64,000 nt of DNA from Candidatus Yanofskybacteria bacterium (GCA_016181175.1 JACOZV010000004.1:7718-71717), one strand, 5' to 3'; shown: positions 777-64,000, numbered from the stretch's first letter. The notes: a model not told the origin generated them from the letters alone. Program-made: numbers and translations.

Positions 777-780
777 AAAG

Positions 781-16834: not shown

Positions 16835-17007
16835 TTATTAGAGAATAAATATATATTCCAATGAATTATATTTTCTCTAGTAATAATTTTAACATTAAAA
16901 CAAGCTTCCTGCTCGACTTTTATCCACAAGTTATTTTATGACATGAACGAAGACATTTTATAAGAATCCGGTTGCTTTATAAAATAAATTGTGATAATCT
17001 AATAATG

Positions 17008-47780: not shown

Positions 47781-47783
47781 AAT

Positions 47784-48071: not shown

Positions 48072-48411
48072 GTTGTAAAGTTGGAGTTAGCCCCGTATCT
48101 AATAAGGGTATGATCGGCATTAATGAAGTATATGCCCATCGACCGCTACTGATAGCAAAACGTTCTAGTACAACCGCAACAACAACACCGAATATTAACG
48201 CATACCATTTTCTTTCTCTAAAATATGAAATTCTTATAAATAATACAGCTAAAAGTGTTATAAAAAAAGCATCAAAAAGCGTAGCTCGCAATAAAATGAG
48301 TTGAGTTATCTCTCCTGCCTTATAATGGATATACAGATACGAATACAGATTTTCCCAAACTAAATTCAACAAGAAACTAATTATAAAAATTAGAGATAAT
48401 TTCTTAAACAT
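48031..48411 (-). CDS. hypothetical membrane protein
   Basis: Four TM helices. The likely start is MFKKLSLIF (48411); the ORF is called to 48456. Confidence 0.4.
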   Translation of the reverse strand: MFKKLSLIFIISFLLNLVWENLYSYLYIHYKAGEITQLILLRATLFDAFFITLLAVLFIRISYFRERKWYALIFGVVVAVVLERFAISSGRWAYTSLMPIIPLLDTGLTPTLQLGLLSYLIFKWRI

Positions 48412-48905
48412 TAGGGCTTTTGATCGAGTTGAGGACGGAGGCAGGTCGCAACACACCAGAAACTACTTGATAGGTGGGTAAACGCCTTTATGGCCTATGA
48501 CTGAAAGAAGGCTTTTGCTGATCCAGAAGTGGCTATTAAACAGATATGTCAGCTACTGGCCACAATATAGTGAATTAAAAAACTACTTCCCTGGCCTATC
48601 AAAATCTGGCCCTCGGGGTTCTTTGTCTACAAAAGGTTAGAACTGGATAAAAACCGCTTAAACAAAGCACAAAAGGAAGCTCTCGCTTCCCTTCATTCAC
48701 ACTGGCTCGCTTGGCTAACCGCTTTCCGAACAACGGACTGGTCTAAAATCTTCCCATATCCATTGGTTTCTTTGAGGCAGATGCGCTACTTACTCACTTT
48801 AGTGGACTAACTTTTGCCCTCTTTTTTGCCTTTTTGAATAATTTTCGAACCGGACGACTCCAGCCCAAAAAATCGGGTACTTTACTGCTTACAATACTTT
48901 GCATT

Positions 48906-49075
48906 TAGGATCCTTGTTTGCGCGCCGGTTCTTCCTTGATTCGACGAAGTGTTTCGTCGAAGAGAATGGCGAAGGCGTCATCAAGATTACGCTGACCTTC
49001 TTCAGTTAAAGGAAGCTGGTGATAGCGCAGCTCAACAAGTAACGGTTTCTGTTTTCTTTTTTTCTTGGTGGTCAT
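48906..49075 (-). CDS. unlisted small basic protein (56 aa), translationally coupled to the upstream 492-aa gene
   Basis: MTTKKKRKQKPLLVELRYHQLPLTEEGQRNLDDAFAILFDETLRRIKEEPARKQGS. Its ATG lies 6 nt after the upstream stop. Confidence 0.35.
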
Positions 49076-49080
49076 GACAA

Positions 49081-50559
49081 TTACATTACCAACTTCCTAT
49101 ATGCCCCATCTAAAAAAGTGTCTATTGCTCTGATCTGATTATCTCTCCTTAAATCGAGGAGTGTTTTTATATCATCGTCGTCAAGCGCGATGATAAAACC
49201 TCGATCGTCGGACGCTGTATCTTTGCATCGTTGAATGAAGCGCGTCTTGTTGGTAAAACTCCTGCATATTAACAATCCGAATCTGCCACGATTAGTAGAA
49301 AACCTACCGGACAACTGGTCGAGTTCGGGGTTAGCCGGATCAGATGAGTAATTCTTACACTCAACAAAAATATAGCTTGATGGTACTCGCTTGTTCTGCG
49401 GTAATTCCCAAAAGAACCCTTTTTTTGCAGCGTTTTCGAAAACGATATCAACTTTCTTTCTCCTTTCATGTAGCGGCTGCTCCTTTTTCGGATTTATAAG
49501 AAACGGATAAAAAATGGCAGTGAGCGCCCCTTGAATATGGTTATGGAAATTGTCTGCGTCAGCATCACCAGTATCTATACGATCCAGTTCTGCTTTTAGA
49601 GCATCGAAGTCAAAAGCTGGGCGTGCACCTATAGCATCAATGTCTTCGTTACTAATTTCTTCGAGATTGTACTGTTTACTGTCGCGATATCGTCGCAAAA
49701 CTTCCGGATGATCTTTCGAAAAAGTGTAAAGAAATTGCTTCGAATGAGGGTGAAGTTCTTTGAGTGCCTTTTTTGTAGGCGGTCTACGCGTTCCATCTTT
49801 AAGCACCCTCACAAGGGCAGAGTTCGCGCTTAAATGCTCTTCCTGTAAAAAGTTTAGTACGAAATGCTGATAGTATTCCTGATGGCTAAACTCCAAACTA
49901 AAACGCGCAACTGCTTTAGGGACAAGTAAAACATTTCTATCATTACACACCGGAAGATTAACATACTCATTAGTCCATTCATTACGAACCGTATTCCAAA
50001 CAGTGCCGCTTGGTACGTTGTGCATTGTAATACCCCAAAATATACATTCGTTTTGGGTGTACTCGATTAACTTTCCGCGAATAATGTTAGTGGTCATGTC
50101 AGATATCTTGTCATGGCTGATGCCTTCGATAAGAAGTTCGCACTCTTCAAGATCTTTAAGAAACCCAGTTCTTACAGCCGAGCTTTCAGCCAACGCATCA
50201 TATAAATCGTTCGCCTGATCTCCTCCTACACCCCTACCTCTCGGGGATCCTCCAACAGACAAACCAAAACGAGTTTGATTCGGCTCTCGCAATCCTGAAA
50301 GCATGTATTTTGCGTCATCCTTTCTATCGGCTCTGATCAAGTCGATAACTCTTTGAAAAAAATTAACGATCTGATTGTGGCAATCGATTGACCACCTATC
50401 ATTCCGCTTTGAAAGAGCATAAGGATCAATAAACAAAGGAATATCCCCATTATTTATGGGAACATCGACAAAATCGAGTTCGTACTGGCTTTTACCAAGT
50501 CGGAAGTTCTCCGAAAAGGTTTCGTATCTTCTTGGTTGTTGTGTTCTTTGTCTTGGCAT
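49081..50559 (-). CDS. large hypothetical protein with a C-terminal PD-(D/E)xK-type nuclease motif
   Basis: ...KKVDIVFENAAKKGFFWELPQNKRVPSSYIFVECKNYS...GRFGLLICRSF fits D-x(n)-E-x-K with a downstream Q/R. No other recognisable domain. It is the last large gene of the type I R-M operon. Confidence 0.5.
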   Translation of the reverse strand: MPRQRTQQPRRYETFSENFRLGKSQYELDFVDVPINNGDIPLFIDPYALSKRNDRWSIDCHNQIVNFFQRVIDLIRADRKDDAKYMLSGLREPNQTRFGLSVGGSPRGRGVGGDQANDLYDALAESSAVRTGFLKDLEECELLIEGISHDKISDMTTNIIRGKLIEYTQNECIFWGITMHNVPSGTVWNTVRNEWTNEYVNLPVCNDRNVLLVPKAVARFSLEFSHQEYYQHFVLNFLQEEHLSANSALVRVLKDGTRRPPTKKALKELHPHSKQFLYTFSKDHPEVLRRYRDSKQYNLEEISNEDIDAIGARPAFDFDALKAELDRIDTGDADADNFHNHIQGALTAIFYPFLINPKKEQPLHERRKKVDIVFENAAKKGFFWELPQNKRVPSSYIFVECKNYSSDPANPELDQLSGRFSTNRGRFGLLICRSFTNKTRFIQRCKDTASDDRGFIIALDDDDIKTLLDLRRDNQIRAIDTFLDGAYRKLVM

Positions 50560-50567
50560 GGTTCATG

Positions 50568-52250
50568 CTATTTGATCAATTTCTTATTCCAGCCCTTTGA
50601 TTTGATGAACTTGAGCGTGCCTTCGATTTCGGCTTTCCTAAACTTGTTTGGTTTCCATGCTTGAATCTTGTCATTGATCGTTGTGAGATCGTCGCTTTTT
50701 GCATCCTGCACAACCTTGCAGACGGTTGCCAAGCACTCAATTTGAGCGCTGGTGGAGTTTTTAATTGCCGGCATAAGATCATTAAGGACGGACTCCATGT
50801 TGCTCAAGATTTTTGAGTTGTATTTGAAGAGTTTACCGGAGTTAGCGCCTAAACCATAGACGCCGTTTTTTTGCTGAAAGAAGCCATTGCGAGGACTTGC
50901 GCCGGCGGTGATGGCTTTCTTAATCTGTAGATCGTAGGGGCCGAAGTTCTGCGAGGTAAAGCTGAAGCCGAGCGGTACCCTGTAAACTTCCTGCGCGAGA
51001 TATAAGAGCTTCGCCACAACCATTTCACCACGTTCAAAACGTTGCAACACCGCTCCGATGGCTTGCCACACCGGAAAGACACTTGCTTTGACAGGAACAG
51101 CAGCCACGCCCTCTTTTACCAACTCACCAGCAAGCGCTTTTGACAAGGCGGAATCAAAAAGTTCCTTCAGCTTCTCTTTTTGAACGAGAAGTCCTTTTTT
51201 ATACTCTTTAATAGCACTAAACCTCTCGGCAATGGCATGCTGGTCTGTCGTTGGTGGTACCATGATTTTTATTTTTTTAAGTGCGGTAGAGTTTACTGCG
51301 GCTTGATTTACCCACGGCGTGCATAGATAACGAAATCTATCGGTTGAATATAAGTATTGAAGATATATAGAGAAGTAGCGCGGATCTAATACTTTTTCGT
51401 TTGTGCGAATCCGAGTGATGTGATTTGAAAAGACATACTTGTAATCCTTGTCTATGTAAACGCTTTTTCCAACTAAACTAATACTGTTTGTATTATTAAA
51501 TAGGACATCACCACTCTTCAGGAAATAAGTTTCCGCATGTGGGTAATCCTGTGGAATATACTTGATGCTATCAAAGTTCAAACTACCGTCATCGCCGATA
51601 TTATTAGGTCTGATTTGTCCAATACCCTTCCCAACCGGACGGAAGGCAAAACCATTCGTAACATCGACTACTAACGCACCGATCTTTTCTTCCTTCCAGC
51701 TTTTTGACGATGATCCAAAAATCTTATTCAAAAGCGACTGAAAAAGCTGATCTGTTTTTTCAATAAGCGCATCATTGAGTTTTTGGGCTTCGCGGATAGA
51801 ATCAACACGTTCTGCAATTGCTTGTTGGGTATTTAAAGACGGCATTGGTACTCGTAAATTTTCAAGGAAGGTTCTATTCAAATGTGGTACTGCCGCTCCT
51901 TGCGCTGCTGATCTAATTTTTTGCTGATTAAATTGCAAAAGGTAAGCAAGGTATCGACTTTCCAGTGTTTCGTTATGAACCACTTTAGCAATCGTGGAAC
52001 CAACAAATCCTCTTAAACCGATACCAACGGTGCCGGCATAAGCACCATCCCAAACCAATAAAACATCGTCATTGTCGCATCGAACTCCGTTATTTTCTGA
52101 AGTGTAAAGCGTATATTGACCACTTCTTAAATTTTCAATGCCAATATAAGGCAAGGTGTCCTTTGCGGCTTCTGCTGCGGAAATCATCATTTTACCTTTC
52201 GCAAAAGAAATAAGTTCGCCTAATTTTTTTGTTTGATAATTACTTTGCAT
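50568..52250 (-). CDS. hsdS: type I restriction-modification specificity subunit HsdS (two TRDs) with a 180-aa C-terminal Panacea/DUF4065-like extension
   Basis: The N-terminus and central conserved region are typical HsdS (LGELISFAKG...IGIENL...; central NTQQAIAERVDSIREAQKLNDALIEKTDQLFQSLLNKIFG; distal HAIAERFSAIKEYKKGLLVQKEKLKELFDSAL). After about aa 380 an extra domain carries KLLYLAQEVYRVPLGFSFTSQNFGPY. Confidence 0.75.
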   Translation of the reverse strand: MQSNYQTKKLGELISFAKGKMMISAAEAAKDTLPYIGIENLRSGQYTLYTSENNGVRCDNDDVLLVWDGAYAGTVGIGLRGFVGSTIAKVVHNETLESRYLAYLLQFNQQKIRSAAQGAAVPHLNRTFLENLRVPMPSLNTQQAIAERVDSIREAQKLNDALIEKTDQLFQSLLNKIFGSSSKSWKEEKIGALVVDVTNGFAFRPVGKGIGQIRPNNIGDDGSLNFDSIKYIPQDYPHAETYFLKSGDVLFNNTNSISLVGKSVYIDKDYKYVFSNHITRIRTNEKVLDPRYFSIYLQYLYSTDRFRYLCTPWVNQAAVNSTALKKIKIMVPPTTDQHAIAERFSAIKEYKKGLLVQKEKLKELFDSALSKALAGELVKEGVAAVPVKASVFPVWQAIGAVLQRFERGEMVVAKLLYLAQEVYRVPLGFSFTSQNFGPYDLQIKKAITAGASPRNGFFQQKNGVYGLGANSGKLFKYNSKILSNMESVLNDLMPAIKNSTSAQIECLATVCKVVQDAKSDDLTTINDKIQAWKPNKFRKAEIEGTLKFIKSKGWNKKLIK

Positions 52251-52869
52251 AAGAATGCGCAGAGTATTGAATTCTACCTACGCGGTTTAATAAGCGCGTA
52301 TCCCGAACTTTTAAGTTTTCACCATCTTTATCGAATGGCCTTATTTCTGCTTTCCAAATAGATCTACAAAAAACAGTGTTCTGATCATTCATATATGTAA
52401 TTTCTAAACATACTGGTATCGCAAATTCAGCCATTTCATACCATTCTCTAAAATTTTTTATGAGTTGAAGTTTGATTCTAAATGACTCATCCTCTGTGGT
52501 CTGATAGAGGGGCACCTTATGATATCTTTCTTCTGCGATGGGCATACCGGTCGCTTTGGGTTGGGAGATATTAAAAGCCGATCCGCGACCAGAATTGAAA
52601 CAGTCAAACTCTATGGAAAAAACTATTTCAAAATGATTCGCATCAGCACGGATTATGCTTCCGGCATCCATCACACCATATCCATGCTCTACTTCACTAT
52701 GTCTAACCCCAACCCATATTCTTAATGGACGCAAAATTAAGCTGGGTACTGTACTTAATGCAGAATTCCAATCTGCTTTTCTGATAGCTTTTATCGAAAT
52801 CCACAGTGAAACAACTGCGGTTATCCCGACTAAAATATCTGCCGTTTTAGAAATTATTTCAAAATTCAT
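52240..52869 (-). CDS. hypothetical protein with N-terminal TM helix, embedded between hsdM and hsdS
   Basis: MNFEIISKTADILVGITAVVSLWISIKAI... It overlaps the hsdS start by 11 nt and begins 7 nt after the hsdM stop. Confidence 0.5.
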   Translation of the reverse strand: MNFEIISKTADILVGITAVVSLWISIKAIRKADWNSALSTVPSLILRPLRIWVGVRHSEVEHGYGVMDAGSIIRADANHFEIVFSIEFDCFNSGRGSAFNISQPKATGMPIAEERYHKVPLYQTTEDESFRIKLQLIKNFREWYEMAEFAIPVCLEITYMNDQNTVFCRSIWKAEIRPFDKDGENLKVRDTRLLNRVGRIQYSAHSYAK

Positions 52870-52875
52870 AATCTT

Positions 52876-54405
52876 TTATCCCAGTTTATCTGTCATCTCT
52901 TCTTGTAATTTTGTTAGATCTTTATTGATTTTCTCAATTTCTTTCAAAATAATTTTTGGCTCGCGGTGTTTTATCTCTTCTCCGATAGCATATGGGTTAT
53001 AAGTGTTTGCAGAAAGTATGTAATCATTTTCGATGATTTCTTTAACTGGCGTAAACCATGCAAGCTGTTTTTCAACTGCGCGGTTTTTATGCCAGAGTTC
53101 CAACAGCTTCGGAATATCATTTCTATATTGGCTGCCGAATTTTTTGGATGCTGAAAGCGATGAACCATCACCTTGCATATCAAAGAACCATACCTTTGCA
53201 GATTCATCGAGTTTCGGCACCGCCTTTTTTTTGAACACCAAGAAGGACGTTTTTACGCCGGCATACGGCTGAAACACGCCTGCCGGCATGGAAACAACCG
53301 CCTGTAAGTCCGTATTTTCAAGTAGAAAACGGCGGATCTCTTTATCATCGCGGTTGGTACCAAAAAATGAACCTTCGGGAAGGATTATGCCGGCTCTGCC
53401 ATTGGGCTTGAGCGAGTTTATAACATGACCCAAAAATAGAACCTGTGTTTTGGTTGATTTGACCGGCAAGGTTGGTTTTATACGTTCCCGATCAACCTTT
53501 CCAGAGAATGGTGGATTTGTAAGGACAATATCGAATGTGCGCAGATCATCCTCATCTTCAGATCCAGCAACCGTGTCTTTGCGCTTAATGTTCGCACTCT
53601 CTATGCCATGTAATATCAAATTCATAAGTGCTAACCGCACCATCTCCGGATCAACATCAGAACCCAAAAAGGTTTTTTTGGTTAGAAATTCCCACTGTTT
53701 TTTATCGAGCTTATCTCCAAACCCCCTCTTGTGTCCATTTTCCTCTTCAATGCTTTTGGGATCGCTATTTCTTAATCGGATCCAATCATAGCCGGAGATG
53801 AGGAAGCCACCAGAACCACACGCAGGATCATAAACAGTTTCGCCAATTTTTGGATTCACCATTTCAACTATGACGCGAACGATATGACGCGGAGTGAGAA
53901 ATTGTCCAAGTTCGCCGGCTGATTCAATACTTGCAAGCAGCTCTTCATAAAGATCGCCCTTAACATCTGTGTCTAATCCTGTTAAATTGATCGTGTCAAT
54001 AATTTCAATCGTGTTTTTTAATGTAACAGAATGGGGAATTTCGAGCTTCGCATCATAAAAAATTTGCCGTATGTTAGAGTGTCCATTTTGCAATCGCTCC
54101 ACAAAGGGAAATACCTCATCACGAACAATTTTATACAATTCATCGCCAGCTTTTTCTTTCCAGCGCGACCATCGGAATTTTTCGTTTTTGCCCTCGAAAA
54201 TTGATTTATGTTTACGCCCAGTAAGTTCTTCGCCTCTCTCCATAGAAATATCCTGTTCCTCAAGCATTTTCAAAAAAAACAAAAAGCTAATCTGCTGGAT
54301 CCTTCTCACAGGGTCTCGTAAACCTGCACCCCAAAGATAATCGTTCAGGCGATCTAATTTTTGGCGAAACTCTATTCTTAATTGTTGTATTTTTTGTTCG
54401 GGCAT
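52876..54405 (-). CDS. hsdM: type I restriction-modification N6-adenine DNA methyltransferase subunit
   Basis: NPPFSGKV catalytic motif, AdoMet site DPACGSGGFL, HsdM N-terminal domain. Confidence 0.85.
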   Translation of the reverse strand: MPEQKIQQLRIEFRQKLDRLNDYLWGAGLRDPVRRIQQISFLFFLKMLEEQDISMERGEELTGRKHKSIFEGKNEKFRWSRWKEKAGDELYKIVRDEVFPFVERLQNGHSNIRQIFYDAKLEIPHSVTLKNTIEIIDTINLTGLDTDVKGDLYEELLASIESAGELGQFLTPRHIVRVIVEMVNPKIGETVYDPACGSGGFLISGYDWIRLRNSDPKSIEEENGHKRGFGDKLDKKQWEFLTKKTFLGSDVDPEMVRLALMNLILHGIESANIKRKDTVAGSEDEDDLRTFDIVLTNPPFSGKVDRERIKPTLPVKSTKTQVLFLGHVINSLKPNGRAGIILPEGSFFGTNRDDKEIRRFLLENTDLQAVVSMPAGVFQPYAGVKTSFLVFKKKAVPKLDESAKVWFFDMQGDGSSLSASKKFGSQYRNDIPKLLELWHKNRAVEKQLAWFTPVKEIIENDYILSANTYNPYAIGEEIKHREPKIILKEIEKINKDLTKLQEEMTDKLG

Positions 54406-54407
54406 AG

Positions 54408-56663: not shown

Positions 56664-56676
56664 TCTTGAGCTTGAT

Positions 56677-58476
56677 CTATAAATTCTCGTAATACCCCCT
56701 GATCTTTTTCGCCATGAGTTTGCGGCGTTCCTTCAAAAACCTTTCGTAATCCCCAAGCTCCATATTCTGAAAGCCATCCGGTATGCAATTCTGTTTTAGG
56801 TTCTCGGCGAGATCTTTTTTATCGGTTATGCCGCCATACTTGAGCTTGCCTCCTTCGGTTTGTTTCATTACTTCAGCCATGTACTCTTTGGGAGATTTTT
56901 TGCCGACTTTGATATTTATTTCAGATTGAGCATAAGTAAAGTTGCCAATCTGGTTGTAATCGCCCCTACTTAAGCCGCCTGCTTTCTTCAGGTATTCCTT
57001 TGGAAAGAGATGATGGATGTCGCCGCGATGACTGATCATATTACCAACGGTAATGTCGGTTGAAAGAAAGCCCCTGTCGTTATTTTTAACCTGTGCCGCA
57101 AAAAAAAGATTGAGAAATGGATTGCTGATGCTCGCCTTATCGAGTTCCTGAATAAGCTGCGCGTTCCAAAAAGCATCGGAGAGTTGCGCTTCTTCGATTG
57201 ATTTCAAAATCTCGCCAGCATCGCCATTGGAAATCTGCTTAATATCCGAATCAAATTGGCTTTCCGGTGATCCGGAATAACGTCCGGTGAGGATAGACAT
57301 CACAAACCAGCGTTGGACATACTTTTCGATCAAGCTTGGATCGACACTCTTATCGCGCAGCTTGAGATATAAAATATAGGCAAAGTTAAGAGCGTTTTGC
57401 GAATTGATAAGGTCGTTGCTTATAAAGCCGCAGGATTTGATGATCATTACAAACCGCTTGAAGTTTGTTTCATTTACAAAATCCAGTACCGCATCACGGA
57501 GTTTTTGGAAAGACGCATCCATTATGTCTTGCTCAAAACTGCGTGTTTCAAAGTTACGCCCCGAAAGCAGTCCGACAAGATCCGCCATCTTGCCTCGTTC
57601 AAATTGTTTGGTGAAACTCACACGCAACACATCGGAATAATCCGGATCGTAGAGGTCGTCATTTTCATCTTTAAGCCATGCAAGTTTTGAAAGGTAAACA
57701 GTTTTGTTAAACTCTGCATCATTTTCAGTTATGTGTTTGTAAAACTGCGGCTCGCGCGCAAGATGGCAAAAATAGTCGACACACTTTCTTAAATTAACGC
57801 CGAAATTATCCTCCTTGTCATAAGAAGCTATCTTCGACATGGCAAAGTCAGCTTGGCTTAATACAACACCTTTGGAATTGATACGGATAAAAATCTCGGT
57901 AACCGTTTCAATATCTAAACCGGCATCAAGTTCAATAAAACCAACCTGCTTGCTTTTGATCTGTAATAACTTCTCAATGTTCTTTTCAATGAGTTCACGA
58001 TTTACGTCAAGATTTTTGTCGCAATAGTCAGTTACATCTTTGAATAAGCCGCCGTCCTTACTCATAAGTTTTGAGATGTCAGCTATCCACGCCTTGTCCT
58101 TTTTTATTGCCGGTGTGAGTGTGGCAAATTCTTCTATGATGGGGTGAAATGCAATATAGATCCGTTCCTCCTTATAATCTTTATTGATAATGTTTTGACC
58201 GAGAATTGCCGCACGGAGAGCGGTAATGCGTTGCTGTCCGTCAATCAAGACCTTTTTGCCGTTGGAAATGGAGCCATCTTTAAGACGAACATCGGGGTTT
58301 TTCCATGCAATGATATAGCCGATCGGATAGCCACGATAAAGCGAATCCATCAGATCGCGCACCTTTGTCGAATCCCAAACAAACGGACGCTGGATTTCCG
58401 GTATAGCGATTTCCTTTTCCTGAACCCAATTCAGGATATTGCTCACAAAGTATTGATTGACTGTGTATTTTTGCAT
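56677..58476 (-). CDS. GmrSD-family type IV restriction enzyme (DUF262 ParB-like N domain + DUF1524 HNH-like C domain)
   Basis: IPEIQRPFVWDSTKVRDLMDSLYRGYPIGYII...LIDGQQRITAL is DUF262. The C-terminus GDIHHLFPKEYL is DUF1524. I take the start at MQKYTV (58476). The ORF call to 58638 reads through an HTH gene in another frame. Confidence 0.75.
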   Translation of the reverse strand: MQKYTVNQYFVSNILNWVQEKEIAIPEIQRPFVWDSTKVRDLMDSLYRGYPIGYIIAWKNPDVRLKDGSISNGKKVLIDGQQRITALRAAILGQNIINKDYKEERIYIAFHPIIEEFATLTPAIKKDKAWIADISKLMSKDGGLFKDVTDYCDKNLDVNRELIEKNIEKLLQIKSKQVGFIELDAGLDIETVTEIFIRINSKGVVLSQADFAMSKIASYDKEDNFGVNLRKCVDYFCHLAREPQFYKHITENDAEFNKTVYLSKLAWLKDENDDLYDPDYSDVLRVSFTKQFERGKMADLVGLLSGRNFETRSFEQDIMDASFQKLRDAVLDFVNETNFKRFVMIIKSCGFISNDLINSQNALNFAYILYLKLRDKSVDPSLIEKYVQRWFVMSILTGRYSGSPESQFDSDIKQISNGDAGEILKSIEEAQLSDAFWNAQLIQELDKASISNPFLNLFFAAQVKNNDRGFLSTDITVGNMISHRGDIHHLFPKEYLKKAGGLSRGDYNQIGNFTYAQSEINIKVGKKSPKEYMAEVMKQTEGGKLKYGGITDKKDLAENLKQNCIPDGFQNMELGDYERFLKERRKLMAKKIRGYYENL

Positions 58477-58477
58477 A

Positions 58478-58666
58478 TTACTTTTTTGGTTTCTTGATAT
58501 TCGATCGAGAACGAATAAACGCCTCGAGATCGCTCTCGCTGATCCGCCAATAGCCGACTTTGGTCGCCTTGAGCCGCCCACTCGAAATATAGCGATACAA
58601 GGATCGCTCGCTAACTCGCAAATACTTTGCCGCTTCACGTAATGTAAGAAATTTCTTTTTGGTCAT
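58478..58666 (-). CDS. excisionase/AlpA-family helix-turn-helix DNA-binding protein
   Basis: LTLREAAKYLRVSERSLYRYISSGRLKATKVGYWRISESDLEAF. It is the first gene of the defence operon. Confidence 0.65.
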   Translation of the reverse strand: MTKKKFLTLREAAKYLRVSERSLYRYISSGRLKATKVGYWRISESDLEAFIRSRSNIKKPKK

Positions 58667-58704
58667 AGGTCAATTGATTTCATTCTATCGCAAAAAAGCC
58701 ACAT

Positions 58705-58723
58705 GGTCAAATGTGGCAAAGTC
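58705..58723 (+). repeat. 19-mer GGTCAAATGTGGCAAAGTC (copy 1), embedded in the palindrome gccacat-ggtcaa-atgtggc
   Basis: Matches 59333..59351 at 18/19. Confidence 0.8.
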
Positions 58724-58747
58724 GGTTATCTTCCTAAAAGGCAGGTG

Positions 58748-59188
58748 TTAGCAGGGGTAACCATTTGGACAAATATCTTCCTGTCGTTCGGTCGTCGGAT
58801 CAATAGGGGTGTTTAAGTCCGGCACGGTATGGTTGCGTGCCATCAACCACCAAACGAGAAGTATCCAAAATCCCCAAAATAAAACTACTGGAACAACTTT
58901 TGAGATGTTTTTCTTTACTCTGATTTTCAACGGAGGGTGAAGTACATGTTTAAGCTCATGGCTTGCTAAATCGCCGTACTCGATTTTCTCCACACACTTT
59001 GGACACGCAACAAATTCTTTCTGCTGCTCGGAAAAGCGCTTGTTTACTCTTGCCCAGAACCCCTCGTCAATAAATGGATTTCTATTTTTTCCGCTCATAG
59101 TTTTGTGAGCGGCGAGTTTTGAAACACAAAACCCACCACTGGGAGGGCTTGCGCCCCTATGGAAGTTTCCCTCCATAACGTTAGGCAC
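58748..59188 (-). CDS. hypothetical protein with CxxC motif and C-terminal TM helix
   Basis: ACPKCVEKIEYGD...; C-terminal VVPVVLFWGFWILLVWWLMA. Start uncertain. Confidence 0.4.
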   Translation of the reverse strand: MPNVMEGNFHRGASPPSGGFCVSKLAAHKTMSGKNRNPFIDEGFWARVNKRFSEQQKEFVACPKCVEKIEYGDLASHELKHVLHPPLKIRVKKNISKVVPVVLFWGFWILLVWWLMARNHTVPDLNTPIDPTTERQEDICPNGYPC

Positions 59189-59332
59189 GCCCCAAATGAT
59201 GGGTTTTCTATGCCTAACGATTTGCGACCATGCCGCCAGCCGAAGCCGATGGTTTAGATCATTTGATATCCAATTGTGTTTTTAAGTATATCAGAAAAAC
59301 ATGAGATCCTGCAACGGATGAAAAATACTGCT

Positions 59333-59351
59333 GGTCAAATGTGGCAAGGTC
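59333..59351 (+). repeat. 19-mer GGTCAAATGTGGCAAGGTC (copy 2)
   Basis: Direct repeat of 58705..58723. The two copies bracket the divergent control region. Confidence 0.8.
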
Positions 59352-59371
59352 TGCTAAAATGAGTTTTAAGA

Positions 59372-59869
59372 ATGACGATGAATATGAAAATGAATAGTAA
59401 AAAAACCGAACCATTTCGCGTTGTTATAAATACAAGTACCGACCCCAATGTGCCATTGATTGAGCTTGTACGTGGTAACCGGAAAGCCAAACTTCCACCT
59501 ATTGCGATCAAAAACGTACGTCTTGATACCGATCGCTATTTGCTTGTCGTAAATGACGGCGAGCGCGTTGTTGCCTTTAAGTCAAAAAGGCACAAGAAGG
59601 GACTGGATAAAGAAACGAAGCTATTTAAAGTGCTGGTATTGCTTTTTGATTTTCGCCTCGAAAAAAAGGGTGAAAAAATACTCCACAGCAAAAACCTTAA
59701 CCCCGACTACACTTCTCTAAAAAATATCGCCGGAAATAGCGGAAGCCCAACACAAGAAGCAGCATATAGAAACATAAAGCGGTTAAATGGCTACTTTGAG
59801 GAAAATGGCTTGTCTATATGGATTGAAAAACACGGCAATGATTGCCGCCTCGTAGTTAAGAAGAGTTAA
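59372..59869 (+). CDS. hypothetical protein
   Basis: ORF only; no motif recognised. Confidence 0.4.
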   Translation: MTMNMKMNSKKTEPFRVVINTSTDPNVPLIELVRGNRKAKLPPIAIKNVRLDTDRYLLVVNDGERVVAFKSKRHKKGLDKETKLFKVLVLLFDFRLEKKGEKILHSKNLNPDYTSLKNIAGNSGSPTQEAAYRNIKRLNGYFEENGLSIWIEKHGNDCRLVVKKS

Positions 59870-59986
59870 TACGCGGACATTATTTTTACAGAAGCGCTCG
59901 ATACTTTAAGGATAAAAGCGCTCAAAAAGTAGAAAAAATCCCTCAAGGGACATTTTGAAAATGTCCCCGATTTTTCTCAATAGTGA

Positions 59987-60298
59987 ATGATATGGTCAAA
60001 GCAAGATACGCTTTGGCTTTTTTGTTTTCCCAAGCCAGCGCGGTCGGATGATATGAAGATACTAAATGAAAAAAACTTTTATCAAACTTCTGACTTTTGC
60101 CTCGCAACGGTTATTTCACTTTCTTTTCCGATAGAAGCAGTAGATCGGCAGAACACGCGAAAAGTTCAATTTATATTTCGTCGCAATAACGTCCTCGATA
60201 AGCTGATCGAGGATTTTTGGCGTGGTGAGATCCGAATTGATCCACAGCTTTTCTATAACCAATTACGAGTGATGAAAGCTCGGATTTACAACGACTAA
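59987..60298 (+). CDS. hypothetical protein
   Basis: ORF only. Confidence 0.35.
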   Translation: MIWSKQDTLWLFCFPKPARSDDMKILNEKNFYQTSDFCLATVISLSFPIEAVDRQNTRKVQFIFRRNNVLDKLIEDFWRGEIRIDPQLFYNQLRVMKARIYND

Positions 60299-60299
60299 C

Positions 60300-60554
60300 A
60301 TGCTTAAACCATCGGCAATTGAAGAATTAAGGTCGATATTGCTCGAAGAGTTTGGGCGTGATGTTGATATTAAAACAGCCAGAACGATCGGCGAGGATTT
60401 AGTCGGCTTCTACGACACTCTCGCAAAGATCGCGCATAAGGATAAAACGATAAGCAAAAATCTTTCCCCTTGCTCGGGTTCCATAGTGGACTATCCACTT
60501 GCAATGAGTAGTTCATTGAAAAAGAGGGTGGAACCCGAACAAAGAGAAAGATAA
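60300..60554 (+). CDS. hypothetical protein
   Basis: ORF only; tightly packed with its neighbours. Confidence 0.35.
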   Translation: MLKPSAIEELRSILLEEFGRDVDIKTARTIGEDLVGFYDTLAKIAHKDKTISKNLSPCSGSIVDYPLAMSSSLKKRVEPEQRER

Positions 60555-60565
60555 AAAAAGAAATT

Positions 60566-62125
60566 ATGAAAAACATTTTTAGTGGTAACCACAAAAAAGG
60601 AAAGGTGTCCGACAAACTGAAGGGCGCGGAATTGGTTTTAGATGTGATCGAAAAAAGCGACTTATGGCTCTTTCACGATCAATTAAACGAGGCATACGCC
60701 GTTATAGCTGGTGATGGAGCATCAATAATGAAAATCGACTCGCAAAAGTTCCACAACTGGCTTTTTAATCATATCTATGACGAAACCGGAAAGATCAGCA
60801 ACACAGCCGCGTGCGAGGCAGCCATAAAGGTTCTGAAACATCAAGCAGAAACTGGGAATCTATTTGAGCTTGGAGTTAGGGTAAAACTGCGTGAGGGCGG
60901 TATTTGGTACGATCTCGGCGGTCAAAACTTTGTGAGTATCGCAGAAGATGGATGGTTGGTAACTGATCCTCCGCAACCAATCCTCTTTAAGAGGTTCGGG
61001 CATCAAAAAGAGCAGGTGCGACCGGAACGCGAGGGTAGCATGAATGAGTTTATGGAGCTTATTAACCTACAAGACAAAAAAGAATCTTTGCTCCTCATGG
61101 TTTACTTGGTTGCATCGTTTATTCCTAACTTTCCTCATCCTGTATTGATTGTGCATGGTTCGCAGGGGGCTGCTAAAAGTACCGCATGTAAATTGATTAA
61201 AGAATTAGTGGATCCATCTGCATTAGAAACTTCGACTATAAACGACGATAAAGACATAAAAGAATTGGTACAAGCCGCATCGCATCATTGGCTGTTAGTT
61301 CTCGATAATATCTCCTATATCTCCGAGAAAATCTCGGACACGATCTCACGAATATGTACCGGAGGCGGATTATCTAAAAGAATACATTATAGCAATGACG
61401 ACGACTTCATTTACAACTTTATGCACATAGTCGCCATTAACGGAATCCATCAGATCGTAAGCAAGCCCGATCTCCTCGATCGATCAATCTTGTTGGCGCT
61501 TGAACGCATCCCTGAAGATAAAAGGATAACGGAGGAGCAACTTTGGGGTCGTTTCAATGCAATGAAAGGAAGAGTTCTCGGCGCGGTTTTCGATGCCGTA
61601 TCCGGAGCATTGCGTGAATATCCGAATGTGCAGTTAGCAACATTGCCACGAATGGCGGACTTTGCACGCTGGGGATGCGCTATTGCGAGGACGCTCGGCT
61701 ACACCGACGAGGACTTTATGAATGTATACAAAACGAATATCGGAAGGCAGAACCAAGAGGCGCTTTCAGCAAGCGCCACAGCAGCAGTCATCATCAAGCT
61801 CATGGAAGATAATGATGTTTTCGAAGATACACCATCTGCTCTTTTGCGACTAATGGATCCGATAGCCGACGATCTCAAGGTAAAAGAAGCGAAGGATTAT
61901 CCACGACAGGCAAACTGGCTTTGGAGGCGCATTGAAGCGGTTATACCGAACCTTGCTGACGCCGGCATAAAGGTCGAGCAAACGAAAGATACTGAACGGA
62001 AGATAAAAATATCAAAGATATTGCGCGGTGATGACAGCACTGAAATTATGCCGTCTTCCGAAAAACCAGCAGAAGAACCTGCAAAAGACAGCATCGACAG
62101 CATAGACGGCACTTTCCCCCTGTAG
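60566..62125 (+). CDS. plasmid/phage replication-associated P-loop NTPase (primase-helicase C-terminal / D5-VirE-like)
   Basis: Walker A VLIVHGSQGAAKSTACKLI; Walker B WLLVLDNIS. The size and context are typical of replication proteins on integrative elements. Confidence 0.5.
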   Translation: MKNIFSGNHKKGKVSDKLKGAELVLDVIEKSDLWLFHDQLNEAYAVIAGDGASIMKIDSQKFHNWLFNHIYDETGKISNTAACEAAIKVLKHQAETGNLFELGVRVKLREGGIWYDLGGQNFVSIAEDGWLVTDPPQPILFKRFGHQKEQVRPEREGSMNEFMELINLQDKKESLLLMVYLVASFIPNFPHPVLIVHGSQGAAKSTACKLIKELVDPSALETSTINDDKDIKELVQAASHHWLLVLDNISYISEKISDTISRICTGGGLSKRIHYSNDDDFIYNFMHIVAINGIHQIVSKPDLLDRSILLALERIPEDKRITEEQLWGRFNAMKGRVLGAVFDAVSGALREYPNVQLATLPRMADFARWGCAIARTLGYTDEDFMNVYKTNIGRQNQEALSASATAAVIIKLMEDNDVFEDTPSALLRLMDPIADDLKVKEAKDYPRQANWLWRRIEAVIPNLADAGIKVEQTKDTERKIKISKILRGDDSTEIMPSSEKPAEEPAKDSIDSIDGTFPL

Positions 62126-62190
62126 GTTTTGGGGTTGTAGGGGTAAATAAAGAAATAGGAATTGCTGTCTGTGTTGTCGGTAAAAAAACT

Positions 62191-62418
62191 ATGAAGAATC
62201 GAACCGAACAATTTAGAGCATGGCGAAGGCGCAATCCGGCGGCATGGAACGCTATTGTAAAGCGCTGCAAGCGCAAGGGGCGCGCGCTCAAGCTACAGTG
62301 GGTTATAAACGAGTATTCGCGCTGGCAGAAGTGGTGTGCAGCGCATCCAGCACAACACCGTAAAATAGCACGCGATTCTTACCACAGAAGAAAAACAAAT
62401 AAGATCAGGGATGCTTGA
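62191..62418 (+). CDS. small basic hypothetical protein
   Basis: Arg/Lys/Trp-rich, 75 aa. Confidence 0.35.
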   Translation: MKNRTEQFRAWRRRNPAAWNAIVKRCKRKGRALKLQWVINEYSRWQKWCAAHPAQHRKIARDSYHRRKTNKIRDA

Positions 62419-62419
62419 G

Positions 62420-62622
62420 TTGTATTCATTGTCAGATTTTTATCTGGCAGCAAGCTGGGTTGTATTCGTTGTCAAAGTGTACATGGATATAACTACAGTA
62501 GTAATGTGCGCATAAAAGATGGGGTTGAACAGGAGTGCGTGTCGTATTGTCAAGCTTCGAAGCAAGTATTGCACGCAAAGAAAAGATGGCTTGATTGAAA
62601 ACGTGTATTTGTTTGTCAAGCC
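62420..62622 (+). repeat. four direct iteron-like repeats GTTGTATTCRTTGTCAAG, at 62420-62435, 62460-62477, 62539-62555 and 62603-62622
   Basis: The repeat consensus was read directly. It lies upstream of the recombinase promoter. Confidence 0.7.
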
Positions 62623-62653
62623 CCGAAGAGAAAAACAAGGAAAAAAGTAAACA

Positions 62654-62682
62654 TTGTATCGACAATGTATTGATAGTATAAT
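62654..62682 (+). promoter_or_regulatory. sigma70-like promoter: TTGTAT - 17 nt - TATAAT
   Basis: Optimal 17-nt spacing with a perfect -10 box. It is overlapped by the small palindrome cattg-tatcga-caatg. Confidence 0.5.
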
Positions 62683-62710
62683 GGCAATGTACCCCCAGTT
62701 GCACTACAAT

Positions 62711-62770
62711 CCGTGATTTTTTATTGGCTTCTGCCCTTAAGGGGGGCGGTGCCGGAAGCCAATCCTCACG
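62711..62770 (+). other. structured 5' leader of the recombinase gene
   Basis: ccgtga...tcacgg encloses ttggcttc...gaagccaa, two nested perfect stems. Confidence 0.35.
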
Positions 62771-62808
62771 GAAAAAGCGACTGGGGTACCACCGCTCCCT
62801 TTAAGTTT

Positions 62809-64000
62809 ATGAAAAACGAACAAAATACAACTAAAAATAAGGCGATTTCCTTTTGCCGCGTAAGCTCGAAGGAGCAAGCCGATGAGGGTTATTCGCTTGA
62901 ATCGCAGGAAAAGCTACTTGAGGCATACGCTACAGACGATAAACGAGATTTTAAGATCATCAAGATCTATAAGATCACGGAATCAGCGAGCGGAAAGCAG
63001 GTACGAAAGACATTTCAGGAAGCACTGAAATACGCCACTGATCAAAAAATAAAGATCATTCTGTGTGAAAAGATTGATCGATTAACACGCAACCTTAAAG
63101 ACGCCAGCACAATTGACGATTGGGTAAAGGATAAAGACACTACCGGTCGGCAGGTTCACTTTGTAAAGGAAAACTTTATTCTTAACGCTGATACAAAGGC
63201 ACACGATAACCTTGTGTGGGATATGAAGGTGGCTATTGCGCGTTTCTATTCAAACAATCTATCCGAAGAAGTGAAGAAGGGGCAAAAGGAAAAGATCGCG
63301 CAAGGATGGCTTCCTACGAAGCCGCCGCTTGGGTATCGCACGATCGGCGACAAAGGGCATAAAACGCACGAAATTGACGAGAAGATCGCCCCATATATCC
63401 GTAAGATGTTTGAGCTTTACGCTACCGGTAATTACTCAACGCTTTCTTTGGTAAGGGTTATGTACAAGGAAGGTTTGCGCAACCGCGAGGGTAAAAGGGT
63501 TGGAAAGAGTAGATTGCATCAATTGCTTTCGGATCCATTTTATTACGGCAAGATGCGATGGAAAGGCGAGGTTGTTAAAGCAGAACACGAACCCCTTATT
63601 CCGAAAGAATTGTTTGACGACGTTCAAAAAATACTTGTCCGGAAGATCAAATATCCCATGTATAGGAAACACCTCCCTATATTTAAGGCGATGCTGCGCT
63701 GCGGAGAGTGCAAAGGCACTGTTACGTGGGAAATACAAAAAAATCATTGGTACGCTCACTGTAGCCATTACCGAAACTGCAAGCAAAAAAAGTATGTCCG
63801 GCAGGAAGCTGTCGAAGAACAGCTTTTCCCATACTTTGATCGAGTTGCCCCGATAAACACGCGCTTGCTGCAGTGGCTTGAGAAGCAGCTTAAAGAAAGC
63901 CACACCGAAGAGATCAAATACAACACCTCAAAGCGAGAGGAGTTAAACCGGATCATCGCAACCGCCGATAGACGGATCGAGGCGGCGTATAAAGAGAAGC
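62809..64000 (+). CDS. large serine recombinase (resolvase catalytic domain + recombinase domain + zinc ribbon), 3'-truncated by the window end
   Basis: My own translation gives MKNEQNTTKNKAISFCRVSSKEQADEGYSLESQ... (catalytic Ser), then DPFYYGKMRWKGE and CGECKG...C. It is not in the ORF table because it has no stop within the window. Confidence 0.85.
   Translation, partial: MKNEQNTTKNKAISFCRVSSKEQADEGYSLESQEKLLEAYATDDKRDFKIIKIYKITESASGKQVRKTFQEALKYATDQKIKIILCEKIDRLTRNLKDASTIDDWVKDKDTTGRQVHFVKENFILNADTKAHDNLVWDMKVAIARFYSNNLSEEVKKGQKEKIAQGWLPTKPPLGYRTIGDKGHKTHEIDEKIAPYIRKMFELYATGNYSTLSLVRVMYKEGLRNREGKRVGKSRLHQLLSDPFYYGKMRWKGEVVKAEHEPLIPKELFDDVQKILVRKIKYPMYRKHLPIFKAMLRCGECKGTVTWEIQKNHWYAHCSHYRNCKQKKYVRQEAVEEQLFPYFDRVAPINTRLLQWLEKQLKESHTEEIKYNTSKREELNRIIATADRRIEAAYKEK

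What the first reader, a model, noticed from the sequence alone, without database searches (positions are those of the whole stretch)
48457..64000. 15-kb mobile defence island: Xis-like HTH > GmrSD (type IV) > hsdR > hsdM > TM protein > HsdS-Panacea > nuclease > small ORF, plus replication protein and large serine recombinase
From 58666 down to 48906 eight minus-strand genes are packed with gaps of -11 to 14 nt, so they form a single operon. They combine a type IV (modified-DNA) restriction enzyme with a type I R-M system and the unusual fusion and effector genes. A divergent plus-strand block follows: hypotheticals, a D5/VirE-like P-loop replication protein, an iteron array, a promoter, and a large serine recombinase running off the window end. 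Together with the excisionase-like HTH these indicate an integrative element. GC content is slightly higher than in the surrounding genome. A 450-nt ORF-free decayed stretch at 48457-48905 may be the left junction.
Basis: partly seen in the sequence, partly recalled or inferred. Interest (0 to 1): 0.7.

Follow-up and report, generated by a model that had tools for sequence, protein, structure and literature searches.

The report
Integrative defence-cargo element in a CPR bacterium
This is a roughly 16-kb mobile element in an ultra-small (CPR) bacterium, sitting next to a tRNA-Asn gene, that carries three or four anti-phage systems and belongs to an apparently undescribed element family marked by an orphan structured RNA called LOOT.

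Summary
Eight minus-strand genes lie 1-13 nt apart, with one 11-nt overlap. They encode an HTH_17 protein, a DUF262/GmrSD-like protein, HsdR, HsdM, a 209-aa membrane protein, HsdS with a C-terminal extension, a 492-aa nuclease and a 56-aa ORF. A divergent plus-strand block ends in a large serine recombinase (LSR).

The mobile-island reading is supported and sharpened.
- Relatives of this LSR end 13-40 nt inside a tRNA-Asn gene.
- A 93%-identical LSR sits in an element with the same HTH and promoter motifs but type III R-M cargo and another Rep-like protein.
- A 51%-identical LSR lies on an ~8.98-kb circle assembled in two samples.
- The "ORF-free stretch" holds an LSR C-terminal tail piece, as at the far end of two relatives. 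It therefore marks attL.

Domain calls:
- The 492-aa protein is DUF8370/PADLOC PDC-M36A with a FokI-like nuclease domain.

Not supported: higher GC, and a D5/VirE assignment. The "iterons" are two exact repeats plus degenerate copies.

New: a LOOT RNA (Rfam RF03000) sits in the backbone here and in six related elements.

The element kind is known; this is a new variant. Interest is moderate to high.

The parts
48574..48810 (+). Start-less 78-codon piece, plus stop, homologous to the C-terminal tail of LSRs of this family. It marks the left junction (attL). The likely crossover is near its 5' part (about 48.63-48.67 kb).
   Evidence: blastp against the contiguous LSR of L017, residues 496-542, E 1.4e-7. 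tblastx against L009 3618-3758 E 4e-10 and L019 561-671 E 1.4e-9. Alignment shows the shared WLAW..RT.KWE.IFPYP.VSL.Q motif and a stop at the same position. Differences are mostly at third codon positions.
48669..48696 (-). Terminator-like hairpin about 210 nt downstream of the last operon gene
   Evidence: 12-pair stem followed by a T-rich tail. Consensus match only.
48905..49075 (-). 56-aa basic/acidic ORF, no family. Annotated in the source MAG as MBI2063292.
49081..50559 (-). 492-aa DUF8370 (PF28123) protein, equal to PADLOC candidate PDC-M36A. N-terminal helical/beta domain plus a C-terminal FokI-like PD-(D/E)xK nuclease domain (invariant D371, E400, K402).
50568..52250 (-). HsdS (two TRDs, aa 1 to about 380) fused to a DarG-C-terminal/Panacea-like domain (aa about 392-560, window 50571-51077)
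52240..52869 (-). 209-aa protein with one N-terminal hydrophobic helix. It belongs to a rare family with no known domain and is inserted between hsdM and hsdS.
   Evidence: No Pfam, PADLOC, NCBIfam or PHROG hit. Only 24 cluster representatives among 1.84e9. One homologue lies beside ribosomal protein genes.
52876..54405 (-). HsdM (type I N6-adenine methyltransferase)
   Evidence: N6_Mtase E 1e-61 and HsdM_N. PADLOC MTase_I E 3e-141.
54408..56663 (-). HsdR, EcoAI/EcoEI-like (HSDR_N nuclease, ResIII, Helicase_C, EcoEI_R_C)
56677..58476 (-). 599-aa DUF262 (GmrSD_N) protein with a C-terminal His-Me-like motif (DIHHLFP...N); GmrSD/HEC-05-like
   Evidence: GmrSD_N E 7e-33. PADLOC HEC-05 E 7e-32. No DUF1524 hit on the C-terminal half. 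Motif read from the translation.
58478..58666 (-). 62-aa HTH_17/excisionase-family DNA-binding protein heading the cargo operon. It is part of the conserved backbone.
   Evidence: HTH_17 E 3e-18. TIGR01764 E 1e-12. phrog_66. 85% nt identity to the same gene in L015.
58682..58719 (-). Best sigma-70-like promoter of the region (TTGACC, 17 nt, TAGAAT). Its -35 lies in the centre of a perfect 7-bp palindrome (GCCACAT N6 ATGTGGC). This is copy 1 of the conserved 15-nt motif GGTCAAATGTGGCAA (58705-58719).
58748..59176 (-). Small protein (142 aa, or 116 aa from ATG 59098) with a CxxC...H..H motif and a hydrophobic helix. It occupies the 'small membrane protein downstream of LOOT' position seen in all relatives.
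   Evidence: No family hit.
59144..59260 (-). LOOT RNA (Rfam RF03000), full length
   Evidence: 71.1 bits against gathering 46.4, E 2e-13. It is the only copy in the 64-kb window. Also found in L008, L015, L009, L016, L017, L018 and L025. 24 of 34 predicted pairs show compensatory changes.
59333..59347 (+). Copy 2 of the 15-nt motif, overlapping a plus-strand promoter-like site (TGGTCA, 17 nt, TAAAAT) upstream of the 165-aa gene
59372..59869 (+). 165-aa protein, no family. First gene of the plus block.
59987..60298 (+). DUF5659 protein. A similar small protein is present in L009.
60300..60554 (+). 84-aa protein. A similar 55-85-aa ORF (motif ..EELR..F.EEFG..) occupies the same position in the related elements; the similarity was seen by inspection only.
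   Evidence: by inspection
60566..62125 (+). 519-aa P-loop NTPase (Walker A GSQGAAKST, Walker B LLVLDN). A replication or helicase role is inferred from its position. The module is replaceable: an AAA_25 protein sits there in L008/L015.
62416..62690 (.). Cluster of short direct repeats. Two 19-nt copies TGrGTTGTATTCrTTGTCA lie at 62416 and 62456, with degenerate GTATT..TTGTCA copies near 62538, 62601 and 62656. A TATAAT box at 62677-62682 lies upstream of the LSR gene.
62809..64000 (+). Large serine recombinase, N-terminal 397 of 625 aa. The rest lies outside the window, and the ORF reads into a tRNA-Asn-like 3' exon at about 64536.
   Evidence: Resolvase, Recombinase and a weak Zn ribbon. Full sequence P0250. 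Coordinates extrapolated.

Best explanation
Window positions from about 48.6 kb to about 64.4-64.5 kb (the right end lies 0.4-0.5 kb beyond the window) form one integrated copy of a small LSR-driven integrative/episomal element of Patescibacteria. The host here is a Candidatus Yanofskybacteria MAG.

Backbone. It consists of an HTH_17 regulator, two copies of a 15-nt promoter/operator motif that bracket a LOOT RNA and a small membrane-protein gene, a plus-strand block of small proteins, a replaceable P-loop 'Rep' module with short repeats, and the LSR gene at the right end.

Integration. The element inserts next to tRNA-Asn(GTT), so the LSR ORF runs into the tRNA. In this genome the tRNA very probably carries a group I intron. 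The native LSR tail is left at the other end of the element (attL, 48574-48810).

Cargo. The slot between attL and the HTH holds a single tightly packed operon driven by the palindrome-overlapped promoter at 58682-58717. It stacks four modules:
- a DUF262/GmrSD-like (type IV-like) enzyme;
- a complete EcoAI-like type I R-M system;
- a rare membrane protein embedded in that system;
- a stand-alone FokI-like DUF8370 nuclease (PADLOC PDC-M36A).
The type I S subunit has acquired a DarG-CTD/Panacea-type antitoxin domain.

Shown: gene content, folds, the tRNA-Asn association in relatives, cargo swapping, the circular relative and the LOOT association.
Inferred: the crossover position, operon status, the roles of the HTH, LOOT and the repeats, and any interaction between the HsdS extension and a nuclease.
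For: - Source and linkage. A second NCBI MAG contig of 19,272 nt carries both the identical LSR and the flanking FMN-reductase homologue.
- Gene calls: 1, 3, 6, 7, 12, 13.
- tRNA-Asn overlap: the LSR ORF overlaps tRNA-Asn by 13-40 nt in L008, L009, L011, L014, L016, L019 and L024. The window LSR tail DLLREQDSNLQPSP matches L014's DLLRRQDSNLQPTP*.
- Group I intron: read-through residues YTLSNTFVSGWTISL match L021 and L012/L022, where a group I intron follows a tRNA-Asn-like 3' exon.
- Logan contig: a contig covering window 48211..64564 ends 30 nt into the tRNA-like sequence, as expected for a repeat of at least 31 nt in a k=31 graph.
- Backbone conservation: L008/L015 share the LSR (93% aa, 85% nt), the HTH (85% nt) and both 15-nt motifs. 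They carry type III R-M, HARE-HTH and AAA_15 cargo and an AAA_25 protein instead.
- Circular relative: L017 and L018 are circular permutations of one ~8.98-kb circle with a contiguous LSR tail.
- Tail fragments at the far end of the window, L009 and L019 elements.
- Other cargo in relatives: Schlafen/AlbA_2, DUF5677, a trypsin-like peptidase and SNase.
- Composition shift at 48-49 kb.
- LOOT in 7 related loci, always 2-4 kb upstream of the LSR on the opposite strand.
Against: - No empty site in a related genome was obtained.
- The source contig beyond 64000 could not be read. The right junction is inferred from the protein sequence and from relatives.
- No att-like repeat or displaced tRNA fragment was found at the left end.
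- Two Logan contigs end at 48211, not at the proposed junction.
- The window LSR keeps its own divergent tail-like motif. The left fragment could therefore be a relic of an older tandem element rather than this element's own tail.
- GC content is not distinctive.
- The Rep-like protein has no significant family match.
- No transfer genes are present.
Confidence: 0.85

Rival explanations
1. The block is a fixed, no longer mobile chromosomal defence island. The recombinase and the tail fragment are relics of past insertions at a tRNA-Asn hotspot, laid down as tandem or successive elements. The present cargo is simply host DNA.
For: The window LSR has its own tail-like motif, and the left fragment resembles another LSR lineage more closely. 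No att similarity was detected. The region 47781-48573 has no annotated genes and could be older debris.
Against: The LSR ORF is intact over 625 codons. The backbone (HTH, motifs, LOOT) is intact and 85% identical at the nucleotide level to another element. The tail fragments keep frame and stop in three diverged loci, with third-position variation. A circular relative exists. The same rep and LSR pair occurs on a contig binned to a Colwellbacteria MAG.
Confidence: 0.1
2. The element is really an episome (plasmid-like circle) that was wrongly joined to a chromosomal contig during MAG assembly.
For: The relative L017/L018 is circular. The longest independent Logan contig (48211-64564) covers only the element plus about 0.4 kb. 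Left-flank proteins are found only in NCBI assemblies.
Against: Two separate NCBI assemblies link the FMN-reductase gene to the element. The LSR ORF is separated from a tail-like piece by the whole element and instead reads into tRNA-like sequence. That is the integrated configuration seen in seven relatives on contigs of up to 274 kb.
Confidence: 0.05
3. Sub-mechanism rival. The DarG-CTD/Panacea-like domain on HsdS is the antitoxin of the adjacent DUF8370 nuclease. The type I complex tethers and silences the nuclease, which is released when a phage inactivates the R-M complex. This would be a PrrC/EcoprrI-style guard.
For: The fold is that of a toxin-binding antitoxin domain (PMC13621843 states that DUF4065 proteins are homologous to the DarG CTD). 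The nuclease gene starts 8 nt after hsdS. A DUF8370 homologue in L006/L007 is preceded by a 59-aa FitA-like RHH antitoxin-type gene. Panacea domains are known to pair with many unrelated toxins (PMC8832971).
Against: In the only two other loci with this HsdS extension (L028, L029) the next gene is hsdR, and no DUF8370 is present. DUF8370 genes in L003, L005 and L006 have no Panacea-like neighbour. The Pfam Panacea score is below the cut-off. No interaction model could be run.
Confidence: 0.15

Closest known systems
SCC/SCCmec-type and other large-serine-recombinase genomic islands and IMEs
   Same: A small non-conjugative island is inserted site-specifically by a large serine recombinase encoded at one end. 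It carries variable accessory or defence cargo, often type I R-M. NCBIfam CcrA/B/C and XisF models hit the LSR at E 1e-15 to 1e-25.
   Different: All those hits are far below the family cut-offs. The target is the 3' side of tRNA-Asn rather than rlmH or a protein gene. The LSR ORF itself crosses the junction. The host is a CPR bacterium. The backbone contains the LOOT RNA.
Defence-cargo hotspots of P4-like satellites, P2 prophages and SXT ICEs (from general knowledge; not checked in papers here)
   Same: A conserved mobile backbone has one slot in which unrelated defence systems are exchanged. Here the slot holds GmrSD-like, type I R-M and DUF8370 genes. L008/L015 hold type III R-M, HARE-HTH and AAA_15. 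L019 holds Schlafen and DUF5677.
   Different: The backbone is unrelated, and there are no phage or conjugation genes. Not all cargo in relatives is obviously defensive (SNase and an adhesin-like protein in L017).
DarG antitoxin C-terminal domain / PanA (Panacea, DUF4065) antitoxins
   Different: There is no macrodomain and no DarT. The domain is fused to a restriction specificity subunit. It is below the Pfam threshold for PF13274. The partner is not conserved.
PrrC-EcoprrI (anticodon nuclease embedded in and masked by a type I R-M system; from general knowledge)
   Same: Extra genes are embedded in or appended to a type I hsd operon, which makes R-M-coupled control of a second effector possible.
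   Different: The effector is a FokI-like DNA nuclease, not an anticodon nuclease. No evidence of masking was obtained.
Integration-dependent immunity of mycobacteriophages (attP inside a regulatory gene, so that integration changes the protein's C-terminus; from general knowledge)
   Same: If the split-ORF model is right, integration replaces the C-terminal tail of a phage- or element-encoded protein.
   Different: Here the affected gene would be the recombinase itself, of the serine type. This is untested.
LOOT RNA motif (Rfam RF03000)
   Same: Full-length, above-threshold matches with supported covariation.
   Different: Rfam types it only as 'Gene; sRNA', which gives no function. I found no paper text that gives it a host or genetic context. 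Here it has a fixed place in an LSR element of Patescibacteria.

Membership tests
Large serine recombinase | N-terminal resolvase catalytic domain with the catalytic serine | tested here: met
   PF00239 E 5e-24. The motif CRVSSKEQ is read in the translation.
Large serine recombinase | Recombinase domain and zinc-ribbon domain C-terminal to the catalytic domain | tested here: met
   PF07508 E 4.5e-17. PF13408 scores 23.5 bits, just under its 25.3 cut-off. The protein is 625 aa long.
Integrative mobile element | Defined att junctions, and empty or excised forms | tested here: inconclusive
   The right junction is inferred from relatives and protein sequence. The left junction is marked by the LSR-tail fragment. 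A circular form was seen only for a 51%-identity relative. No empty site was obtained.
Type I restriction-modification system | HsdR with nuclease, SF2 motor and C-terminal domains; HsdM; HsdS with two TRDs | tested here: met
GmrSD-family type IV restriction enzyme | N-terminal DUF262 domain | tested here: met
   PF03235 E 7e-33, above its cut-off
GmrSD-family type IV restriction enzyme | C-terminal DUF1524 His-Me nuclease domain | tested here: inconclusive
   No Pfam hit on aa 293-599 even at E<=1. A DIHHLFP...N motif is visible in the translation. The best PADLOC model is HEC-05, not a named GmrSD model.
GmrSD-family type IV restriction enzyme | Cleavage dependent on modified DNA | not testable with these tools
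   Biochemical property
Panacea (DUF4065, PF13274) antitoxin domain | Match to the family model above the gathering score | tested here: not met
   16.2 bits against 25.7, E 0.02. Only 1 of 5 homologues matches at all.
Panacea / DarG C-terminal antitoxin fold | Three-dimensional fold of the toxin-binding domain | tested here: met
PanAT-type toxin-antitoxin pair | Conserved adjacency to a toxin gene that it neutralises | tested here: inconclusive
   DUF8370 follows after 8 nt here. In L028 and L029 the next gene is hsdR. Neutralisation is not testable.
DarTG | DarT ADP-ribosyltransferase and the DarG macrodomain | tested here: not met
   No Macro or DarT hit in any island protein
PADLOC candidate PDC-M36 / Pfam DUF8370 | Match to PDC-M36A models and to PF28123 | tested here: met
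   E 2e-48 and 4e-20. All 120 listed homologues carry PF28123. Whether the candidate system needs further genes is not known to me.
PD-(D/E)xK (FokI-like) nuclease | Fold and catalytic D...E-x-K triad | tested here: met
MADS (methylation-associated defence system) | mad1-mad8 gene set above family cut-offs | tested here: not met
   Only weak mad1, mad2 and mad5 similarities, far below the NCBIfam cut-offs. The better hits are to type I models.
D5/VirE (VapE) primase-helicase replication proteins | Significant match to the VirE/D5 helicase domains | tested here: not met
   VapE-like E 0.085 and nSTAND 0.011, both sub-threshold. No PDB sequence relative beyond P-loop matches. No PHROG.
LOOT RNA (RF03000) | Covariance-model score above gathering, and conserved pairing | tested here: met
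   71.1 bits against 46.4. 24 of 34 pairs have compensatory changes among six copies.

The most novel reading that the evidence does not exclude
The island belongs to an undescribed family of LOOT-RNA-bearing integrative/episomal elements of CPR bacteria. In this family attP lies inside the serine-recombinase gene. Integration beside tRNA-Asn would then detach the recombinase's native C-terminal tail, leaving it at attL. The tail would be replaced by a chromosomal pseudo-tail or tRNA read-through. That would be an integration-dependent switch of recombinase form. LOOT and the two conserved operator motifs would control the choice between episomal and integrated life. In this member, in addition, a type I specificity subunit has captured a DarG/Panacea antitoxin domain that may hold a nuclease (DUF8370 or HsdR) in check.
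Probability: 0.4. Interest if true: 0.75.

Novelty: new variant of a known kind. Interest (0 to 1): 0.6.

Why it matters
- Mobile elements of CPR/Patescibacteria are poorly known. This one gives a concrete, comparable family (LSR, tRNA-Asn target, HTH, LOOT RNA, swappable cargo slot) with both an integrated and a circular member.
- It gives the orphan LOOT RNA motif a host clade and a genetic context, which makes its function testable. Candidate roles are copy control, the switch between states, or a leader for the small membrane protein.
- I know of no other serine recombinase that targets a tRNA gene with its own ORF crossing the junction, and this one could be of use as an integrase tool.
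- The HsdS::DarG-CTD fusion and the FokI-like DUF8370 (PDC-M36A) are concrete candidates for coupling restriction to a second effector.

Tried and rejected
- Extending the source contig beyond 64000 failed. The source MAG is not among the GTDB representatives. The MAG's own LSR and that of a second MAG are not in the gene-position index.
- Viral contig scans with the LSR and with the Rep-like protein found nothing. The element is therefore not catalogued as viral, and PHROG hits are limited to the HTH and DUF8370.
- A displaced tRNA fragment or att repeat at the left end was sought in four ways: tblastn of the LSR tail, blastn of the relatives' tRNA-Asn, Smith-Waterman with an inferred arm, and Hamming scans. 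All stayed at background level. My early impression that TTCGAACCGGACGACTCC at 48844 is a tRNA remnant is not supported statistically.
- No direct repeats were found at element ends in relatives.
- No synteny was found between the flanks of relatives and the window.
- The empty-site test failed.
- A profile search of the HsdS extension against PDB sequences found nothing.
- The 209-aa protein is unrelated to the 250-aa neighbour of a DUF8370 gene in L005.
- The 56-aa ORF is unrelated to small ORFs next to other DUF8370 genes.
- The idea that the LSR read-through meant a non-tRNA secondary insertion site was dropped after the group I intron matches.

Full report
SOURCE. Exact-sequence look-ups place the window on a 126,662-nt contig of a Candidatus Yanofskybacteria MAG (Patescibacteria/CPR). 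The island proteins are MBI2063292-MBI2063306. Three Logan assemblies of runs SRR12113384, SRR12113420 and SRR12113430 reproduce the island at 100% identity.

OBSERVATION: GENES. The eight minus-strand genes and their spacing are as described. One correction applies: the GmrSD-like gene starts at ATG 58476 (599 aa), 1 nt after the HTH stop. Gaps run 1, 13, 2, 6, -11, 8 and 5 nt.

Family scans give the following.
- HTH_17/excisionase family.
- DUF262 = GmrSD_N, with PADLOC HEC-05 as the best model. No DUF1524 hit was found on the C-terminal half, although a DIHHLFP...N His-Me-like motif is visible.
- HsdR of the EcoAI/EcoEI type, plus HsdM.
- HsdS with two TRDs up to about aa 380, plus a 180-aa extension.

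The best sigma-70-like site in the whole 16 kb sits just upstream of the HTH (TTGACC, 17 nt, TAGAAT). Its -35 lies inside a perfect palindrome. With the tight spacing, this makes one transcription unit likely, but that is an inference.

OBSERVATION: COMPOSITION. GC is not elevated: 0.424 against 0.4195, within the flank's own range. Tetranucleotide distance of the island to the flank is 0.226, against 0.077 +/- 0.007 for flank windows. Trinucleotide distance rises from about 48-49 kb onward.

ARE THE TWO GENES A PAIR? The comparative evidence is thin. In L028 and L029 the same HsdS extension is followed by hsdR, with no DUF8370. DUF8370 genes elsewhere stand alone beside other R-M genes; one is preceded by an RHH antitoxin-like gene. 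I rate the guard or antitoxin idea at about 0.15.

The 209-aa protein between hsdM and hsdS belongs to a rare family of 24 representatives with one N-terminal hydrophobic helix. At least one member lies in a non-defence context.

MOBILITY: RIGHT END. The LSR is 625 aa long. In seven related loci the LSR ORF ends 13-40 nt inside a minus-strand tRNA-Asn(GTT) gene. In four of them the stop codon TAA lies in the anticodon loop.

The window LSR ends ...SRDLLREQDSNLQPSP and then reads on for 37 codons. L014 ends ...SRDLLRRQDSNLQPTP*. The extra residues (YTLSNTFVSGWTISL) recur in L021 and L012/L022. In L012, and likewise in L027, Rfam finds a group I intron placed directly after the TTA of a tRNA-Asn-like 3' exon. 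The tRNA-Asn of this genome is therefore very probably intron-containing, and the island does abut it.

A 16,354-nt Logan contig equals window 48211..64564. Its right end lies 30 nt into the tRNA-like sequence, which is the signature of a repeat of at least 31 nt in a k=31 graph.

MOBILITY: BACKBONE AND CARGO. L008/L015 carry an LSR 93% identical in protein (85% nt), the same HTH gene (85% nt) and both copies of the 15-nt motif GGTCAAATGTGGCAA. Their cargo differs: type III methylase and helicase, HARE-HTH and an AAA_15 ATPase. Their ATPase is an AAA_25 protein. More distant members carry Schlafen/AlbA_2 and DUF5677 (L019), a trypsin-like peptidase (L009), or SNase, DUF2807 and DUF5677 (L017).

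L017 and L018 come from two samples and are circular permutations of one ~8.98-kb circle. L018 has a 55-nt terminal overlap.

A Colwellbacteria-binned 3.4-kb contig carries near-identical rep and LSR fragments. This suggests spread between lineages, but mis-binning cannot be excluded.

MOBILITY: LEFT END. The 'ORF-free decayed stretch' contains, on the plus strand at 48574-48810, a start-less reading frame that ends in a stop. It is homologous to the last ~58 residues of the contiguous LSR of the circular element L017 (E 1.4e-7). It is also homologous to equivalent pieces 6-8 kb upstream of the LSR genes in L009 and L019 (E 4e-10 and 1.4e-9).

The pieces share WLAW..RT.KWE.IFPYP.VSL.Q and the same stop position. 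They differ mainly at third codon positions, so they are conserved as protein.

The simplest reading is that attP lies inside the LSR ORF. The circle then encodes the full recombinase. Integration leaves the tail at attL and joins the body to chromosomal sequence next to tRNA-Asn.

The window LSR also keeps a divergent tail-like motif before the tRNA. This fits an attB that is itself an old LSR-tail relic, but it equally allows a tandem-relic explanation.

No att repeat could be found, as expected for serine recombinases. Two Logan contigs end at 48211 for reasons I cannot explain.

LOOT RNA. An Rfam scan found one hit in the window: LOOT (RF03000) at 59144-59260 on the minus strand (71 bits, gathering 46.4). 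It lies between the two 15-nt motifs. LOOT is also present in L008, L015, L009, L016, L017, L018 and L025. In every case it lies 2-4 kb upstream of the LSR on the opposite strand and is followed by a gene for a small protein with a hydrophobic helix. Six copies support the fold with compensatory changes in 24 of 34 pairs. I found no text in the held literature that gives LOOT a context.

WHAT IS NOT SHOWN.
- The role of the HTH (regulator or recombination directionality factor).
- The role of the P-loop protein: no significant family, only Walker motifs.
- The role of the repeats at 62416-62690: two exact copies plus degenerate ones.
- Current mobility in this genome.

VERDICT. The kind of thing, an integrative element loaded with restriction-type defences, is known. 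Four features make it a new variant of moderate-to-high interest:
- the family it belongs to (CPR host, LSR beside tRNA-Asn, possible split recombinase ORF, LOOT RNA);
- the HsdS::DarG-CTD fusion;
- the FokI-like DUF8370 nuclease;
- the apparent exchange of cargo on a conserved backbone.

Noticed in passing
window 59144-59260 (-); L008 5764-5884; L015 5776-5896; L009 7465-7587; L016 2178-2306; L017 1320-1433; L018 3642-3755; L025 301-419: LOOT RNA (Rfam RF03000), which Rfam types only as 'Gene; sRNA', is a fixed backbone component of these LSR elements. It always lies antisense to the LSR, 2-4 kb upstream, and is followed by a small membrane-protein gene.
   Followed up: partly
L017 (8989 nt) and L018 (9039 nt): Two contigs from different samples are circular permutations of one ~8.98-kb circle (55-nt terminal overlap in L018). 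The circle carries LOOT, an HTH regulator and an LSR with a contiguous C-terminal tail. It is an episomal or excised member of the family.
   Followed up: partly
beyond window end (about 64536-64680, inferred); L012 11576-11929; L027 about 1720-2014: tRNA-Asn genes next to these recombinases can carry a group I intron in the anticodon loop. ARAGORN misses them, and the LSR ORF reads through the 3' exon into the intron.
   Followed up: partly
window 58705-58719 and 59333-59347; L008 5314-5328 and 5959-5973; L015 5326-5340 and 5971-5985: An exact 15-nt motif GGTCAAATGTGGCAA occurs twice, 628-645 nt apart, bracketing LOOT. It is conserved between elements with different cargo and Rep modules. Copy 1 lies in a perfect palindrome that overlaps the -35 of the HTH-operon promoter. 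It is a probable operator.
   Followed up: partly
window 47781-48573: The source MAG annotates no gene here, although ORFs of 141 aa (48031-48456, multi-helix hydrophobic) and 95 aa exist. GC is low (0.374 for 47781-48904). Two independent Logan contigs both stop at 48211. A 52-aa fragment similar to the neighbouring FMN reductase is annotated nearby (MBI2063290). This could be older element debris or a strain-variable region.
   Followed up: partly
L028 1192-2688 and L029 71-823: The DarG-CTD-like extension on HsdS recurs in two other metagenomic type I loci, where it directly precedes and overlaps hsdR. Gene callers had split the L028 fusion into a 232-aa 'stand-alone' protein.
   Followed up: partly
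L003 6085-7947 (-), next to a DUF8370 gene: A 620-aa fusion of a LexA DNA-binding domain, an S24 peptidase and an N6/N4 DNA methyltransferase lies beside an MvaI/BcnI-type endonuclease. This looks like an SOS-cleavable methylase in a CPR-like contig.
   Followed up: no
window 13000-17000: A stretch with GC 0.46-0.50 and trinucleotide usage as deviant as the island's (distance 0.18-0.195). It covers ORFs 13340-15337, 15364-16131 and 15929-16834.
   Followed up: no
window 123-1217: A cluster of four minus-strand tRNA genes (Trp, Thr, Tyr, Thr) lies at the window start, followed by a 1231-aa ORF (3289-6984) that I did not identify. This is ordinary chromosomal context.
   Followed up: no
P0125/P0248 (MBI2594954, MBI2594956; 3,432-nt contig): Fragments at least 90% identical to this island's Rep-like protein and LSR sit together on a contig binned to a Candidatus Colwellbacteria MAG. 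Either the element crosses CPR lineages or the short contig was mis-binned.
   Followed up: no
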